Of a stretch of DNA of 64,000 bases, positions 21,902 through 27,364 are shown piece by piece. The number at the start of each line of letters is the position of its first letter. Positions within the stretch are counted from its first letter, which is position 1. A program made the position numbers and the translations under genes. The notes below the pieces were generated by a model. It did not search any database. It was given only the letters and a program-made list of their open reading frames with translations, and was not told where the DNA came from. This stretch comes from Escherichia phage OSYSP, in sequence record MF402939; one strand, given 5' to 3'.

Positions 21902-21940
21902 GAAAAACCCCAGCGGATTTTGTCCGCTGGGGTTTCTTTT
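21902..21940. terminator. Bidirectional rho-independent terminator between convergent early and late transcription units
   Basis: CCCCAGCGGA-TTTTG-TCCGCTGGGG flanked by an A-run and a T-run. Confidence 0.8.
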
Positions 21941-21953
21941 TACTATGTATACA

Positions 21954-24863
21954 TTATGAGTTATCTGGCTTAATGAGCTCACTCACAAGTTTTTTCAGTT
22001 CGGTTAATTCTTGCTCAAGTTTGTTAACTTTATCAGCTTGATAACGAAATGCACAAGCTAAATCCGCCATAATTACGTTATTATCAAGAGCTAATGTATC
22101 GTCCGCTTTATCAACAACAATTTGACGGTCTACATATTCTTCACCTTCTTCATTAACACCTATAACATCTGCAAAAATATCCCCGCCAGGAATTAATTTT
22201 ACATATTCCGGGTCTATTTTTAGTAGGTCTTGGGCTATTAAACCAAATCGCTGGATGTTGCTTCCATTGTATTTAAACATTGTAGGCAGCCACTGCATAA
22301 CGCGATCATAGCTTTCTTTTCCATCTGTATAAATTATATCATGCTTTAAATCTCTGTCAGAGTTGGCGGCCTTTTGAAAAATGAAATTTCCACTTGATGA
22401 CCATGTAGTTATATCGTTTGATGCTGGCTGAAACTGGAAGTTACAGAAAAAATTGCCATCACCACGAAGCCTTAACGAGCAAAAAGGCCAAGCATTATTT
22501 CCCTGTGGGATAAGACCCCAAGTTGCACGAATTGGATAACCACCAGTTGATTGTGTACCCCATGAAAGTCCAGGCGCCCATCCACCATCATTGTTAGGAA
22601 TAATCTCGCCCCAAACAAGAGCATTACCCCAATAGTTAGGATCATCCCAGCCCATTTGTTGGGTTTTGCCAGTGTATTGGGCGGAATGAGTTCTGCCGTC
22701 AGGGTAAAACTTGTGCATATAGGCCTGTATCCCTGCTTGATACAATTCTATTCCAAAAGATTCAATGTGTGTGTCGCCTCTTCTGATTAAACCAGCGATA
22801 GCGTAATCGTCATACCAATTGTAACGACTTACACCAGTCCATGTGTTTATGGGTGGATTCATGGTTGAAAATAGTTGTGACGCATTGCGTTCATTCCCGT
22901 CTGCATAAATACCAGCCCCCGGAGCTAATGAGATTGATTTTGCTCCTGAAAAAGTACCATTTTCATTAAATTGATAATAGTGAAACAAGTTATTATGAAA
23001 CACACCTATTGTATGTTTTCCTACGCCTACTTGAGTTTCGAAATAAGACTGAGAAGAACCAATATCCTCGCCTTGTGTGTTCTTTAATTTTGAATGGTAT
23101 ATACCTGCGTTTGCAGTATTTGCATTTTCCGTTTCATTTTCAACATTAAGGCTTAGAAATTTTGGTGCATGTTTTTCGCCAAGTCCTATATTGTTTCTAA
23201 TACCATTCGCATCCTTAGCACCCGTACCACCAAATTGAATACCTAGTGGTAGCCATTGATTGGTTGTAGCATCATAAACGCCCCAATGATCCCCACCATC
23301 TGGAATGGTTAGATACTTGTTTTTATTTGGGGAATATAAAACTGTTTCACCAGAAGTCTGAAACAGCCTATCAACTCCTAAATTATATCTAGCACCTTCA
23401 AGTGTATCCGCTCCAGTACCACCAGCAATAATTGATAATGGAAGAGATTCCCATGAGATACCATCACCATTTATGTTTTTCTGGAGTACAATAAGCCCAT
23501 CATCTCGCATAACAAATCTATATAATCTATTATGCGAGTATAAAAAAGTATGAACCCCATCCTGCACAAGTGAGTCTATAAGGAGCGTCTGACGAGAAGC
23601 ATTAATATCCGACAGATCTGAAAGATTATTTTCTTTTAGTAACGATTTACCAATAATACCTTCAGCTTTTCCAGCAGCCACTTCTGCACGTCCAGCGTCG
23701 GTAGATGCGCTTTGTGCGCTACTAGCAGCATTACTAGCTTGTTGCCCGGCCTCAACAGCACTGTTACCCGCTTGTGTAGCGGAAATAGCAGCGGCGTCTT
23801 TTAGCACGGTAGTTTCGGACACAGCGGCATCCTTAATTGCTTGCGTCTCGCTTACTGCACTATCCTTAATAGTCTGTGTGTCAGACTTTAATTTTTCAAC
23901 ATCTGCTTTTAAAGCTGTTGTTTCACCTACAGCGGCATCCTTAATTGCTTGCGTCTCGCTTACTGCACTATCCTTAATAGTCTGTGTGTCAGACTTTAAT
24001 TTTTCAACATCTGCTTTTAAAGCTGTTGTTTCACCTACAGCGCTATCTTTAATTAGTTGAGTATCTGATTTTAGTTGCTCAACATCTGATTTTAAGCCTT
24101 GAATAGTGGTTACTGACTGACTAGCTGAGGTTGCAGAACTAGCTGCGTTAGTCTCACTATCTTTGGCTTTAGTCTCACTAGTTTTAGCATTTGTTTCACT
24201 AGTTTTAGCATTTGTTTCAGAGGTTTTTGCAGCAGACGCTGATGTAGCAGCTTGTGTAGAGAATGTTTCCGCCTCATTCCTAAAACCACTGGAATCCGCA
24301 GCGGAAGCGGCAGCATTAGTCTCACTGATTTTTGCTTTATCTTCACTAATTTTTGCAACAGCAGCAGATGCAGCAGCATTAGTCTCACTGATTTTTGCTT
24401 TATCTTCACTAGCCTTTGCATTAATTTCGCTAGTTTTAGCTTTATCTTCACTAGCCTTTGCATTAATTTCGCTAGTTTTAGCTTTATCTTCACTAGTCTT
24501 TGCATTAGTTTCGGATATTTTAGCTGCTGCAGCGGATTCTGCAGACTTATTGGCTGACGTTGCGGACTGAGTAGCAGAAGTAGCTGATTGGGTAGCCGAT
24601 GCTTCAGAAGCTTCCGCGGAAATCGCAGCTTCCTGTTCAGAATTCTTAGCATTAAGCTCTGAAGTCTTAGCAGCTATTTCAGAATCTTTTGCAGCCGCAG
24701 CAGATTTAGCAGTGGCCTCTATAGAAGATACTAACTCATTAGCAGTAATAGAGCTAATAGAATTTCCAAGAGTTACTGTGTATCTAGGAAATTTACTAGC
24801 AGTAGCTTTAGTATCATCAATATTTAATATTTGTTGTACAATAATCTTAGTAGTTATTGCCAT
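21954..24863 (-). CDS. L-shaped tail fibre (pb1-like) with Ala/Ser/Thr/Lys-rich repetitive shaft and C-terminal intramolecular chaperone (peptidase S74-like)
   Basis: Tandem repeats in the translation; C-terminal SDRDLKHD ... GLIAQDL motif; position after dut as in T5-like phages. Confidence 0.8.
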   Translation of the reverse strand: MAITTKIIVQQILNIDDTKATASKFPRYTVTLGNSISSITANELVSSIEATAKSAAAAKDSEIAAKTSELNAKNSEQEAAISAEASEASATQSATSATQSATSANKSAESAAAAKISETNAKTSEDKAKTSEINAKASEDKAKTSEINAKASEDKAKISETNAAASAAVAKISEDKAKISETNAAASAADSSGFRNEAETFSTQAATSASAAKTSETNAKTSETNAKTSETKAKDSETNAASSATSASQSVTTIQGLKSDVEQLKSDTQLIKDSAVGETTALKADVEKLKSDTQTIKDSAVSETQAIKDAAVGETTALKADVEKLKSDTQTIKDSAVSETQAIKDAAVSETTVLKDAAAISATQAGNSAVEAGQQASNAASSAQSASTDAGRAEVAAGKAEGIIGKSLLKENNLSDLSDINASRQTLLIDSLVQDGVHTFLYSHNRLYRFVMRDDGLIVLQKNINGDGISWESLPLSIIAGGTGADTLEGARYNLGVDRLFQTSGETVLYSPNKNKYLTIPDGGDHWGVYDATTNQWLPLGIQFGGTGAKDANGIRNNIGLGEKHAPKFLSLNVENETENANTANAGIYHSKLKNTQGEDIGSSQSYFETQVGVGKHTIGVFHNNLFHYYQFNENGTFSGAKSISLAPGAGIYADGNERNASQLFSTMNPPINTWTGVSRYNWYDDYAIAGLIRRGDTHIESFGIELYQAGIQAYMHKFYPDGRTHSAQYTGKTQQMGWDDPNYWGNALVWGEIIPNNDGGWAPGLSWGTQSTGGYPIRATWGLIPQGNNAWPFCSLRLRGDGNFFCNFQFQPASNDITTWSSSGNFIFQKAANSDRDLKHDIIYTDGKESYDRVMQWLPTMFKYNGSNIQRFGLIAQDLLKIDPEYVKLIPGGDIFADVIGVNEEGEEYVDRQIVVDKADDTLALDNNVIMADLACAFRYQADKVNKLEQELTELKKLVSELIKPDNS
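23850..24560. repeat. Tandem direct DNA repeats inside the tail-fibre gene (roughly 40-60 bp units, several copies)
   Basis: Repeated blocks such as GCATTAGTCTCACTGATTTTTGCTTTATCTTCACTA and CTTTGCATTAATTTCGCTAGTTTTAGCTTTATCTTCACTAGC. Confidence 0.8.
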
Positions 24864-25285
24864 TATCTAGTTACCCCATCACTGATAAATACTTTACCCT
24901 CCATTATACGAAAAGAACTAATAGCTGATCCTATGACGTCTCGTGTCATAATTATATCATAGTATCCTGCAAAACGTTGGCGAGGGTTATACTTATCTCT
25001 CTCTTTGGTAGCTTTTTCGCCAATATTATCTACTGCCTCTACAGGTAAACTTATAGCTATAGCACCTTGAGCAGCATCAGTAATTTTAGTAGTAAAAGAT
25101 GCCAAAGTTTCCGCATTCTCATCAAGCCCGGCCTTTATAGTACCCCTTAGGGAATACCCTGTTAAGTTAACAGGGGTATTTGTAGGTGGATAAGTACTAT
25201 CATCAACATCTAAGAATTGCATCATTAGACCATAAGGTACTTTCTCATCTATCACTAAGTCTATAACTCTATTTTCAGTACTCAT
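24863..25285 (-). CDS. Tail collar protein (p132-like, 140 aa)
   Basis: Size and synteny with the T5-like tail tip module. Confidence 0.55.
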
Positions 25286-25291
25286 TATTTA

Positions 25292-27364
25292 TTACCTTAT
25301 ATGGATATACCCACTATTTAGGTCTATCTTCATCTTGTAGTATGCCTCAGGATTTCCTGATAACGCAGCGTTCCTATCATAAATGATGTTAACACCGATC
25401 TGAGATAAGAAAGCATTTCCTGCTACAATTTTATCTGCCGTCACCGTCCCGTTAACAATCATGTTTCCGTGGAGAACCATTGCAGGGTTAACCCAACCAG
25501 ACCCGTTCCATTGCCTTGTAAATGCTGATTGTGGGGCATTACTGTTAAATTCAGTTAATACATCATATTTAACTGGAGGAGAACCGAAGTTACTTTGAAA
25601 GAAGGAATTAGCTTGTCCATCATCCCAACCACCTAAACCTGCTATACCTACAGAGTACATCCCAGGACCACGTTGTCCATCATGCCCTATAGTACCTTCA
25701 GTACCACTCCACTGAACCACATCTGACCAGCTAGTACCCTCTAATAACCTATTAGTAACTGGATCAAGTGTACCCGTAGTCGCATAGATATTTTGTGTCA
25801 TATCTGTACGGTTAGGTGGAGTTTTTGACCAACCAGGAGGTGGATAATCTTGTTCTAGTGGTTTAGCAGGTAGAGATGTTGCTAACTTATAAACAAATAC
25901 TGTCTGTTTACCTTGTAAACCAGTTTCAATATCTACGTCACCATTTGGTGTCCCAATTACTACACCACTAGAGATACGCAAGGTAGTACCATCATAACGT
26001 ATCCATTGTGTAGCGTTACCAATGTCTAATTTAGCTTTGGCAGAGGTATTATCCATACCCATCCAAATACCGGAGTTATTATCCCCCCAAGATTTACCTT
26101 GAGTGTAAATTGCTGGGTTATCCTTACCAGATAAGTTAGTCATAATAAAGTTCGCAGCATTAATATCTCTAGTAATTACTTTACCATCAACGTTAACAAC
26201 ACGGTTTATAGGGTCGAAAGAAATAGGTGCTTTTCCTTCTTCATCCAGTAGACCAATGTTAATAGCACCAGTAGCTGCGTCGATTAAGAATGTCTGTCTC
26301 CAGATTTCTCCATCTTTCATGCTACCCTTAATAAAGGCATAATTAACGTCAATACCTGTCTCATTGACAAAGCTATTGTCTAGAGGAGTATCTTCATTCA
26401 ATATAAATGTTACAGGAGCTGATTCTGTTATATCTTGCTTATTTGGTCCCCAGGCAATTGATGATACCTTAAAAGTATGCTCAACTTTCCATGGGAATGA
26501 TATAATCGTTGCAGCTCTAGCAGCCCCAACGTTTATCTTTTGAGCTTTATCCCAGCCAGTCTTAGCGTATTCTTCAGAGTTTATATAAGTAACCAGAAAT
26601 TCACGGACATTAGCACCCGCACCACGTTCCCAGTCCCACTCTATTCTGACATCATATCGTTCCTTACCATCTGCAATTCGTGCAGCTTTAAAGGCAATGT
26701 TAGTAGGTGCAGTAGGTGGTACAAAATTATAAGCTACAGTGAAAACGCTAGGATATTCATAATAACCAGATGAGTCAACTGTAACACCATCTGGCATCGT
26801 AACTTGACCAGATATTCTGATCTTATAGTCGCCAACGGGAACACCACCAAATTTGATAGTAGGTCCCAGCGCGCCTATATAGTATTTAACCCATTCACTA
26901 TCTTCTGATGCAGTACTTTTTAATTCAATAGTGCAGTAACTAGCTTCACCAGTAGTCTCTACAACAACTATTGGAGCACCAACACCAACGTCAACGGGTT
27001 CTGATTCAGATCTTGCTGCAGTAATTATTGGCTTTTCCTTTGTTCTAAAGTTAGTTTCATTAGAGAGGTTTATACCAATTTTTGCATTTAAAAGTTCTGA
27101 GTCGATAATTGAATCATAGAAAGCCCCCTGAACCTGGTAGGTGGTTGAGGGGGTTAAATTATTAATCATTACGAAGAAAGTATCTATACCGGTATAATCA
27201 CGTCTATCTATACTTTCTCCTATTTTTAACCAAAAAGATCTACCAATAACATCATAATCAGTATAAATGGAGTGCTGGACATAAGCCAAAGTATATCCAG
27301 TCATTATACTATTTAAGACCATTTTGGCTGGTGCATTATTTGAAATCATTAAATGGATGCCCAC
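25292..27364 (-). CDS. Tail tip / central fibre protein (pb4-like)
   Basis: Size (690 aa) and synteny. Confidence 0.6.
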   Translation of the reverse strand: MGIHLMISNNAPAKMVLNSIMTGYTLAYVQHSIYTDYDVIGRSFWLKIGESIDRRDYTGIDTFFVMINNLTPSTTYQVQGAFYDSIIDSELLNAKIGINLSNETNFRTKEKPIITAARSESEPVDVGVGAPIVVVETTGEASYCTIELKSTASEDSEWVKYYIGALGPTIKFGGVPVGDYKIRISGQVTMPDGVTVDSSGYYEYPSVFTVAYNFVPPTAPTNIAFKAARIADGKERYDVRIEWDWERGAGANVREFLVTYINSEEYAKTGWDKAQKINVGAARAATIISFPWKVEHTFKVSSIAWGPNKQDITESAPVTFILNEDTPLDNSFVNETGIDVNYAFIKGSMKDGEIWRQTFLIDAATGAINIGLLDEEGKAPISFDPINRVVNVDGKVITRDINAANFIMTNLSGKDNPAIYTQGKSWGDNNSGIWMGMDNTSAKAKLDIGNATQWIRYDGTTLRISSGVVIGTPNGDVDIETGLQGKQTVFVYKLATSLPAKPLEQDYPPPGWSKTPPNRTDMTQNIYATTGTLDPVTNRLLEGTSWSDVVQWSGTEGTIGHDGQRGPGMYSVGIAGLGGWDDGQANSFFQSNFGSPPVKYDVLTEFNSNAPQSAFTRQWNGSGWVNPAMVLHGNMIVNGTVTADKIVAGNAFLSQIGVNIIYDRNAALSGNPEAYYKMKIDLNSGYIHIR

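What the first reader, a model, noticed from the sequence alone, without database searches (positions are those of the whole stretch)
21954..24863. Tail fibre with long tandem repeats and a C-terminal self-cleaving chaperone domain
The shaft is encoded by near-perfect tandem DNA repeats (23850-24560) giving reiterated Ala/Ser/Thr/Lys-rich peptide units, which can expand or contract by recombination. The C-terminus carries an SDRDLKHD ... GLIAQDL region typical of intramolecular chaperone (peptidase S74-type) domains that cleave themselves after folding. At 969 aa the fibre is much shorter than the T5 one as I recall it.
Basis: partly seen in the sequence, partly recalled or inferred. Interest (0 to 1): 0.45.

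Follow-up and report, generated by a model that had tools for sequence, protein, structure and literature searches.

The report
T5-type lateral tail fibre gene

Summary
ORF 21954-24863 (-) encodes 969 aa, and tandem DNA repeats cover about 23798-24565. Repeat periods are 21, 42, 63 and 108 nt, and two 108-nt copies match at 106/108. SDRDLKHD (aa 835-842) and GLIAQDL (aa 874-880) are present.

The protein is 100% identical to the tail fibre protein of Escherichia phage OSYSP, a Tequintavirus. Its first ~235 aa are homologous to T5 pb1 and DT57C LtfA, and it sits directly after the collar gene ltfC/p132.

Inferred architecture:
- aa 1-40: collar anchor.
- aa 41-411: predicted alpha-helical rod (30 unbroken heptads, then 11+11+7+7 units).
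- aa 412-834: beta-rich receptor-binding part.
- aa 835-969: Peptidase_S74 intramolecular chaperone.

Pfam places Ser835 at the same model position as T5's experimentally proven scissile Ser1264, and Lys840 has the same +5 spacing.

Length differences among close relatives (969/940/933/922/873 aa) are all whole repeat units (+36, +7, -11, -49 aa), so copy-number variation is real. The extra 36-aa unit occurs only in this Ion Torrent-sequenced genome and could be a mis-assembly. The tip plus chaperone is shared at 84-99% identity with unrelated ~50- and ~60-kb phages.

Cleavage, trimer state and receptor are inferred, not shown. This is a known kind of protein and of low interest.

The parts
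21954..24863 (-). ltf gene: L-shaped (lateral) tail fibre protein, 969 aa, 103.5 kDa precursor. Identical to Escherichia phage OSYSP YP_009791002.1.
   Evidence: ORF; exact-sequence look-up; PHROG 5481 at E 1e-273; masses.
24744..24863 (-). aa 1-40: N-terminal anchor that inserts into the LtfC/p132 collar. Its ATG shares one base with the TAA stop of ltfC (TAATG).
   Evidence: About 85% identical to DT57C LtfA residues 1-100. In DT57C this segment forms beta-strands that augment the LtfC sheets, ahead of a long helix starting at T40 (PMC10713586). TAATG overlap read.
23631..24743 (-). aa 41-411: predicted alpha-helical rod, inferred to be a three-helix coiled coil of about 55 nm. This is the repeat-encoded 'shaft'.
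   Evidence: The AF2 model has helices 41-190 and 200-411. No Pro in aa 43-405. The homologous helix in DT57C LtfA is a trimeric coiled coil.
24108..24737 (-). aa 43-252: 30 uninterrupted heptads of consensus N-A-K-T-S-E-T (Ala at position 2 in 23/30, Ser at position 5 in 28/30). Encoded by 21/42/63-nt tandem arrays.
23829..24044 (-). aa 274-345: two tandem 36-aa units (each 11+11+7+7 residues), 106/108 nt identical. The second copy is absent from every relative examined.
22362..23630 (-). aa 412-834: beta-rich distal part. It holds two small domains, each introduced by an NLSDL / GGTGA..AR.NLG motif, followed by the receptor-binding region. The predicted mature C-terminus is Asn834.
   Evidence: AF2 model at pLDDT 74.6, mostly strands. 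Weak internal duplication at E 3e-5. aa 560-834 is shared at 84-99% identity with T5-like, ~50-kb and ~60-kb phages. No alignment to the T5 pb1 distal domain.
22359..22361 (-). Codon of Ser835, the predicted nucleophile. The predicted scissile bond is Asn834-Ser835. Lys840 (+5) is the predicted general base.
   Evidence: Pfam model position 1 corresponds to T5 Ser1264 at model position 1. The Ser1264/Lys1269 mechanism is described in PMC4690869. SDRD[LIV]K occurs in 122 of 123 full-length homologues.
21957..22361 (-). aa 835-969: intramolecular chaperone (Peptidase_S74) domain, 135 aa, 15.4 kDa, predicted to be released after trimer folding. It ends in a long helix at aa 928-963.
   Evidence: The domain is colinear with the C-terminus of DT57C LtfA, though only weakly (E 0.039).
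21905..21935 (.). Bidirectional intrinsic terminator: a 14-bp stem with 8 G-C pairs and T-runs on both strands. It lies between the ltf stop codon and the convergent 85-aa ORF.
   Evidence: T5 has an annotated bidirectional terminator at the same position.
24863..25285 (-). ltfC / p132 collar protein gene (140 aa), the attachment partner of the fibre.
   Evidence: PDB 8hqz_Q at E 8.4e-75 and T5 p132 (7qg9_R) at E 2e-64. PHROG 34807.

Best explanation
This is the single-gene L-shaped (lateral) tail fibre of a T5-like phage; the window is phage OSYSP.

Three chains attach by their first ~40 residues to the LtfC/p132 collar. Residues 41-411 form a thin three-helix coiled-coil rod encoded by 21-, 33- and 108-nt in-frame repeats. 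Residues 412-834 form the thicker beta-structured distal part that binds a surface glycan, probably an O-antigen or LPS structure. Residues 835-969 are an intramolecular chaperone: its C-terminal helices trimerise first and template folding of the intertwined tip. Ser835, activated by Lys840, then cleaves the Asn834-Ser835 bond, releasing a 15.4-kDa fragment and unmasking the 88-kDa mature fibre.

Because the rod's DNA repeats are in frame, slippage or unequal recombination changes rod length by whole units without destroying the protein. The tip plus chaperone is a cassette exchanged between unrelated phages.

Shown here: the gene, the repeats, the homologies, the conserved Ser/Lys motif, the indel pattern and the mosaicism. 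Inferred: trimer state, coiled coil, cleavage, receptor class and the mechanism that generates the indels.
For: Identity: exact match to the OSYSP tail fibre protein. The window is about 95.5% identical to Tequintavirus VEc33 over 25 kb.

Fibre family: the N-terminus matches DT57C LtfA at E 7.6e-34 and T5 pb1 at 52% over aa 1-235. The gene is syntenic with ltfC and pb4.

Rod: AF2 predicts helices 41-190 and 200-411. There are 30 unbroken heptads and no Pro. The DT57C LtfA helix from T40 is a three-helix coiled coil in cryo-EM (PMC10713586).

Chaperone: PF13884 scores 33.6 bits against a cut-off of 22, starting at Ser835. T5 pb1 hits the same model starting at its proven scissile Ser1264. The predicted order of secondary-structure elements is two helices with two strands, a four-strand hairpin, then a long terminal helix. 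That order matches the published description of the T5 chaperone. SDRD[LIV]K is present in 122 of 123 full-length homologues.

Repeat dynamics: all indels among nine homologues are whole units. The 11-aa unit also varies in copy number in a different phage backbone.

Cassette exchange: the C-terminal module is found behind at least four different N-termini.
Against: - No experimental evidence of cleavage exists for this protein or any close relative.
- A profile of this chaperone aligns to T5's only over the 13-residue cleavage motif, not significantly.
- The Arg that senses correct folding in T5 (Arg1250) could not be mapped.
- The receptor is unknown. Phages carrying this tip were isolated on O157:H7, rough K-12 and Salmonella, so no single glycan is indicated.
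- The window-specific extra 36-aa unit comes from an Ion Torrent assembly and is unique to it.
Confidence: 0.85

Rival explanations
1. The second 108-nt unit (the +36 aa that makes this fibre 969 rather than 933 aa) is an assembly artefact of the OSYSP genome, not a real duplication. The true fibre would equal the 933-aa form.
For: Only this sequence carries two exact copies among all homologues retrieved. The genome was assembled from Ion Torrent reads (PMC11664485). Other assemblies visibly fail in this gene: SA001's ltf is split into three ORFs, and the phiLLS, PK7 and PK8 records begin or end inside the gene.
Against: The insertion is exactly one in-frame unit. The two copies differ at 2 of 108 positions, at the unit boundary, which is what a genuine recent duplication would look like. 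Other unit-sized indels in independent genomes show that the process occurs.
Confidence: 0.2
2. The C-terminal domain is retained in the mature fibre. It would be a non-cleaving auto-chaperone or structural cap, as proposed for the C-terminal fin of the P22 tailspike.
For: Cleavage was not observed. Similarity to solved, cleaving chaperone domains is weak apart from the Pfam core. One homologue has Cys in place of the Ser (P0007).
Against: The Ser-x4-Lys dyad is conserved in 122 of 123 homologues and sits at the same Pfam positions as T5's proven site. In T5 the uncleaved domain blocks competition for the receptor (PMC4690869), so retention would be expected to disable the fibre.
Confidence: 0.05
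3. The Ala/Ser/Thr/Lys/Glu repeat region is a flexible, disordered or non-helical linker, not a rigid coiled-coil rod. Collagen-like or beta structure was once suggested for the thin proximal part of T5 pb1.
For: The 2015 T5 paper speculated that the proximal part has a collagen fold. The heptad core positions are small and polar (Ala/Ser), atypical for stable coiled coils. The AF2 model is a monomer with pTM 0.24.
Against: There is no Gly-X-Y periodicity and no Pro. A strict 7-residue register runs over 210 residues. Helix is predicted at pLDDT 70-94. Cryo-EM shows the start of the homologous segment as a three-helix bundle.
Confidence: 0.07
4. The gene encodes a 'tail tip protein' (central fibre or tip component), as several GenBank records label it, rather than the lateral fibre.
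For: Annotations read 'tail tip protein' or 'putative tail tip protein' in VEc33, SA001, Elw and phiLLS.
Against: The central fibre pb4 is the separate 690-aa gene at 25292-27364. The N-terminus is the LtfA/pb1 collar anchor. The adjacent gene is the LTF collar protein.
Confidence: 0.02

Closest known systems
Bacteriophage T5 L-shaped tail fibre protein pb1 (Ltf, 1396 aa; PDB 4UW7/4UW8 per PMC4690869)
   Same: Same genomic position. The N-terminal anchor and heptad rod are homologous (52% identity over aa 1-235). Both are single-gene fibres. Both end in a PF13884 domain of about 133-135 aa that begins with S-D-x-x-L-K.
   Different: This protein is 427 aa shorter. Nothing aligns beyond aa ~235, so the receptor-binding part is unrelated in sequence to the polymannose-binding 'bullet' domain. 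The chaperone domains align only over the cleavage motif.
DT57C LtfA (PDB 8hqz chain d, 1076 aa), from the branched LtfA/LtfB fibre
   Same: [quoted passage not shown] Its C-terminal chaperone is weakly colinear.
   Different: The window has no ltfB gene; ltf is followed directly by a terminator. The middle and receptor-binding parts differ.
Endosialidase K1F C-terminal intramolecular chaperone (founding member of Peptidase_S74, PF13884)
   Same: Pfam family match above threshold, Ser/Lys dyad, C-terminal location, and a terminal helix suited to a trimeric coiled coil.
   Different: The passenger is a fibre tip, not a sialidase tailspike. No direct sequence or fold comparison with the K1F structure was made here.
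Lateral tail fibre tips of ~50-kb siphophages (slyngel, atuna, G29-2) and ~60-kb phages (SD04-like, PF08400 N-terminus)
   Same: aa 560-834 plus the chaperone are 84-99% identical. The 11-aa rod unit is shared and also varies in copy number.
   Different: The N-terminal attachment domains and virion backbones are completely different.

Membership tests
Peptidase_S74 / intramolecular chaperone domain (PF13884) | Match to the Pfam model above its gathering score | tested here: met
   33.6 bits against a cut-off of 22, E 4.7e-8, aa 835-889 = model positions 1-58 of 58.
Peptidase_S74 / intramolecular chaperone domain (PF13884) | Nucleophilic Ser at the domain start with a Lys five residues downstream (T5 Ser1264/Lys1269) | tested here: met
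   Ser835 and Lys840. T5 Ser1264 sits at the same model position (mechanism). The motif is conserved in 122 of 123 homologues.
Peptidase_S74 / intramolecular chaperone domain (PF13884) | C-terminal domain of about 130 aa ending in a helix that forms a trimeric coiled coil, preceded by a long beta-hairpin | tested here: met
   The domain is 135 aa. AF2 gives two helices with two strands, then a four-strand hairpin, then a helix at aa 928-963. This is the same order as the published T5 description. Trimerisation itself was not tested.
Peptidase_S74 / intramolecular chaperone domain (PF13884) | Three-dimensional similarity to solved chaperone domains (3GW6, 4UW8) | tested here: inconclusive
Peptidase_S74 / intramolecular chaperone domain (PF13884) | Autoproteolytic release after trimer folding | not testable with these tools
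   Requires SDS-PAGE or mass spectrometry of virions, or an S835A mutant.
T5-like L-shaped tail fibre (pb1 / LtfA) | N-terminal collar-binding anchor homologous to pb1/LtfA | tested here: met
   8hqz_d at E 7.6e-34; T5 pb1 at E 4e-32.
T5-like L-shaped tail fibre (pb1 / LtfA) | Gene immediately downstream of the ltfC/p132 collar gene and pb4 in a Tequintavirus tail module | tested here: met
   TAATG start/stop overlap.
T5-like L-shaped tail fibre (pb1 / LtfA) | Long alpha-helix from about residue 40 acting as a trimerisation rod | tested here: met
   Predicted helices at 41-190 and 200-411. The trimer state is inferred from DT57C.
T5-like L-shaped tail fibre (pb1 / LtfA) | Binds a specific O-antigen as a reversible primary receptor | not testable with these tools
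   Known for T5 and DT57C. The isolation hosts of phages with this tip are mixed.

The most novel reading that the evidence does not exclude
The coiled-coil rod may be a length-tunable module. In-frame gain or loss of 7-, 11- and 36-residue units through their DNA repeats would give standing variation in fibre reach, in steps of roughly 1 to 7 nm. That variation would be selected to match the thickness of the host's O-antigen or capsule layer. On this reading the repeats are an adaptive contingency feature rather than neutral slippage.
Probability: 0.15. Interest if true: 0.45.

Novelty: new member of a known kind. Interest (0 to 1): 0.15.

Why it matters
The finding mainly confirms textbook modularity of T5-like lateral fibres: a conserved anchor and rod, a swappable tip and a self-cleaving chaperone.

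Practical value is modest:
- It gives a predicted cleavage site (Asn834/Ser835) and domain boundaries for engineering the host range of OSYSP, a phage studied for biocontrol of E. coli O157:H7.
- It flags the repeat region as a place where short-read assemblies and annotations of T5-like phages often go wrong.
- It documents unit-wise length polymorphism of the rod, which could be used to test whether fibre length matters for adsorption.

Tried and rejected
1. Foldseek against the PDB with the aa 400-969 model. Best E 1.6e-3, TM below 0.12, unrelated proteins; rejected as meaningless.

3. Profile of alignment A2 against PDB sequences. Hits came only through the foreign N-termini of other phages' fibres (Klebsiella depolymerases 7vyv/7lzj) and the short GGTGA..AR.NLG motif. 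Nothing matched the receptor-binding part.

4. hhalign and hmmsearch of the chaperone profile against T5 pb1. Only the 13-residue cleavage motif aligned, not significantly.

5. The search for homologous proteins with aa 1-260, meant to survey rod length across T5-like phages. The word prefilter was swamped by the heptad low-complexity sequence and returned ~400-aa fibre proteins of other phages, with no T5-like Ltf. It was useless for that purpose. It shows only that this kind of heptad is widespread in phage fibres.

6. A literature search for earlier descriptions of tandem-repeat or heptad variation in T5-like fibres found nothing relevant.

7. Host association of the tip is mixed: O157:H7, K-12 and Salmonella. 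No receptor call was made.

8. The short ORFs overlapping the repeats on both strands (e.g. 24163-24570 +, 24110-24652 -) were dismissed as by-products of the repeats.
Full report
**Observation**

The ORF is exactly as reported: 21954..24863 on the minus strand, ATG start, 969 aa. Tandem Repeats Finder finds four arrays inside it:
- a 108-nt period, 2.2 copies, 97% matches, at 23821-24054;
- a 21-nt period at 24148-24231;
- a 63-nt period, 2.0 copies, 90%, at 24298-24420;
- a 42-nt period, 3.2 copies, 93%, at 24392-24525.

The repeat finder places repeat family members over 23798-24565. In coding orientation the two complete 108-nt units (23937-24044 and 23829-23936) are identical at 106 of 108 positions.

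At the peptide level, aa 43-252 form 30 uninterrupted heptads. Their consensus is N-A-K-T-S-E-T, with Ala at position 2 in 23/30 and Ser at position 5 in 28/30. aa 253-405 show periodicities of 7, 11, 25 and 36, meaning units of 11+11+7+7 residues. The quoted motifs are present: SDRDLKHD at aa 835-842 and GLIAQDL at aa 874-880.

**Identity of the window and the gene**

The first 25 kb of the window is about 95.5% identical to Tequintavirus VEc33 and 94-96% identical to many other T5-like phages. An exact-sequence look-up shows that the 969-aa protein is the 'tail fiber protein' of Escherichia phage OSYSP (ASM62939.1 / YP_009791002.1, 110,901-bp genome). [quoted passage not shown]

Several results place the gene in the lateral-fibre family:
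- It matches PHROG 5481 'tail fiber protein' at E 1e-273.
- Its N-terminus matches the solved DT57C LtfA (PDB 8hqz_d) at E 7.6e-34.
- It aligns to T5 pb1 at 52% identity, but only over aa 1-235.
- The gene directly upstream (24863-25285) is the LtfC/p132 collar protein: 8hqz_Q at E 8.4e-75 and T5 p132 at E 2e-64.
- Its TAA stop shares one base with the ltf ATG.
- Upstream of that lies pb4, the central straight fibre.

Downstream, a 14-bp-stem hairpin with T-runs on both strands (21905-21935) separates ltf from a convergent small ORF. T5 has an annotated bidirectional terminator at the same place. There is no second fibre gene, so this is a T5-type single-gene fibre and not the DT57C branched type.

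**Anatomy**

- **aa 1-40, the anchor.** It is highly similar to the DT57C LtfA segment that forms beta-strands augmenting the LtfC sheets, ahead of a long helix starting at T40 (PMC10713586).
- **aa 41-411, the rod.** An AlphaFold2 model predicts two long helices, 41-190 and 200-411, mostly at pLDDT 70-94. There is a low-confidence break at DSSGFRNEAE. aa 43-405 contain no proline. Because the homologous helix in DT57C is a three-helix coiled coil, I infer a trimeric coiled-coil rod. At 0.15 nm per residue (established helix geometry) it would be roughly 55 nm long. This corresponds to the 'thin proximal domain' seen in T5 electron micrographs.
- **aa 412-834, the distal part.** It is beta-rich in the model, at mean pLDDT 74.6. 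It has two small domains, each introduced by an NLSDL or GGTGA..AR.NLG motif; the internal duplication is weak (E 3e-5). The distal receptor-binding region follows.
- **aa 835-969, the chaperone.** See the next section.

**The chaperone and the cleavage site**

Pfam Peptidase_S74 (PF13884) matches aa 835-889, covering model positions 1-58 of 58, at 33.6 bits against a gathering score of 22. T5 pb1 matches the same model at residues 1264-1323, positions 1-57.

Experiments on T5 (PMC4690869) established the following:
- Ser1264 is the scissile and catalytic residue.
- The S1264A mutant stays uncleaved.
- Lys1269 activates the serine.
- The 133-residue domain is released after folding.
- The uncleaved form does not compete for the receptor.

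By Pfam register, Ser835 corresponds to Ser1264 and Lys840 to Lys1269. The predicted scissile bond is therefore Asn834-Ser835, giving an 88.1-kDa mature fibre and a 15.4-kDa fragment.

The motif SDRD[LIV]K is present in 122 of 123 full-length homologues. One Logan-derived sequence (P0007) has Cys in place of the Ser.

The predicted secondary structure after Ser835 runs: two helices with two strands, then a four-strand hairpin, then a long terminal helix at aa 928-963. This reproduces the order of elements described for the T5 chaperone.

Direct comparisons were weak:
- phmmer of the domain finds only DT57C LtfA, at E 0.039.
- A profile aligns to T5 only over the cleavage motif.
- Fold searches with the monomer model were uninformative.

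Membership therefore rests on the Pfam match, the catalytic dyad and the predicted topology. Cleavage itself is inferred.

**Repeat-number variation**

The window protein was aligned with VEc33, MET_P1_179_112, T5_ev212, Elw and four further database homologues. Sequences are 87-98% identical over the N-terminal 421 aa, and 91-99% over the whole protein for the four compared full-length. Lengths are 969, 940, 933, 922 and 873 aa.

Every length difference is an integral repeat unit inside the rod:

| Change | Where | Unit |
|---|---|---|
| +36 aa | window only | one 108-nt unit |
| +7 aa | VEc33 | one AKTSETN heptad |
| -11 aa | ev212/Elw clade | one IKDSAVSETQA unit |
| -49 aa | P0004 | seven heptads |

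In the ~60-kb phage class, which carries the same tip behind an unrelated PF08400 N-terminus, the same 11-aa unit occurs in 0, 1 or 2 copies.

One caveat applies. The window-specific extra unit is found only in OSYSP, whose genome was assembled from Ion Torrent reads. This gene also troubles other assemblies. SA001's ltf is split into three ORFs, and the phiLLS, PK7 and PK8 records start or end inside the gene. I put the chance that the extra copy is an artefact at about 0.2.

**Mosaicism**

At the DNA level, the C-terminal ~1.2 kb is 86-90% identical to ~50-kb phages such as slyngel, G29-2 and atuna. The C-terminal ~1.9 kb is 88% identical to the ~60-kb phage SD04. Other T5-like phages (IrisVonRoten, Baret, PNJ1902) share only the 5' 0.9-1.25 kb.

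At the protein level, aa 400-969 occur behind at least four different N-terminal classes, including E. coli prophages. aa 560-834 are 84-99% identical across these backbones.

This fits the published picture of lateral-fibre loci as hypervariable, exchangeable O-antigen-recognition modules in T5-like and small siphophages (PMC8594841; PMC4728585). The isolation hosts of phages with this tip include O157:H7, rough K-12 and Salmonella, so the ligand cannot be named.

**Comparison with the known, and verdict**

The feature works like T5 pb1 or DT57C LtfA and meets the testable membership criteria for both the T5-like lateral fibre and the S74 intramolecular chaperone. It differs from T5 pb1 in having a shorter body and a receptor-binding part unrelated in sequence. 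No solved structure matches that part by sequence.

The protein is already deposited and annotated as a tail fibre, and the family biology is well established. The only mildly new point is the documented unit-wise length polymorphism of the coiled-coil rod. The finding is correct but ordinary: a new member of a known kind, of low interest.

Noticed in passing
P0007 (homologue), residue aligned to window aa 835: One ~60-kb-phage homologue has CDRDLK instead of SDRDLK, so Cys replaces the predicted nucleophilic Ser. This could be a sequencing error or a thiol variant of the self-cleaving site.
   Followed up: no
L003 (Salmonella phage vB_SalS_SA001) 1500-4312: The orthologous fibre gene is annotated as three separate ORFs (1854, 543 and 135 nt). 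The breaks fall in the repeat region, probably from frameshift or assembly errors.
   Followed up: no
Phage records KY677846 (phiLLS), PV615398 (PK8), PV611632 (PK7): These genome records begin or end inside the ltf gene, at or near the repeat region. Short-read assemblies therefore tend to break here.
   Followed up: no
window 24264-24305 (aa 187-200...ADSSGFRNEAET...): This is the only low-confidence break in the predicted rod helix (pLDDT below 50 at aa 186-204). Two Phe residues sit at the heptad position normally held by Ser. It could be a hinge or stutter, or simply model uncertainty.
   Followed up: partly
Phage records MG065643, MG065649, MG065657, MG065680, MG065681 ('Campylobacter phage' E6, A143, C4, A113, A139) and MH230177 ('Aeromonas phage SD04'): These records carry this enterobacterial fibre tip at 84-87% amino-acid identity. 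Their ~50- and ~60-kb genomes resemble coliphages, so the host labels look doubtful.
   Followed up: no
Proteins P0126-P0245: Hundreds of ~400-424-aa proteins from other phage contigs share the same Ala/Lys/Ser/Glu heptad words. Some carry BppU_N or T7-fibre Pfam domains. This rod motif is therefore a widespread fibre building block beyond T5-like phages.
   Followed up: no
window aa 807 (Cys) versus the consensus of alignment A2: In the consensus 'GDGxxxRxFxF' most homologues have Arg where this clade has Cys (GDGNFFCNF). Whether this relates to the folding-sensor Arg described for T5 (Arg1250) is unknown.
   Followed up: no
window 23871-23887 and 23979-23995 (+ strand): The terminator-like hairpins reported by the scan inside the gene are the same sequence in the two 108-nt repeat copies. 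They are on the non-coding strand and are most likely incidental.
   Followed up: no
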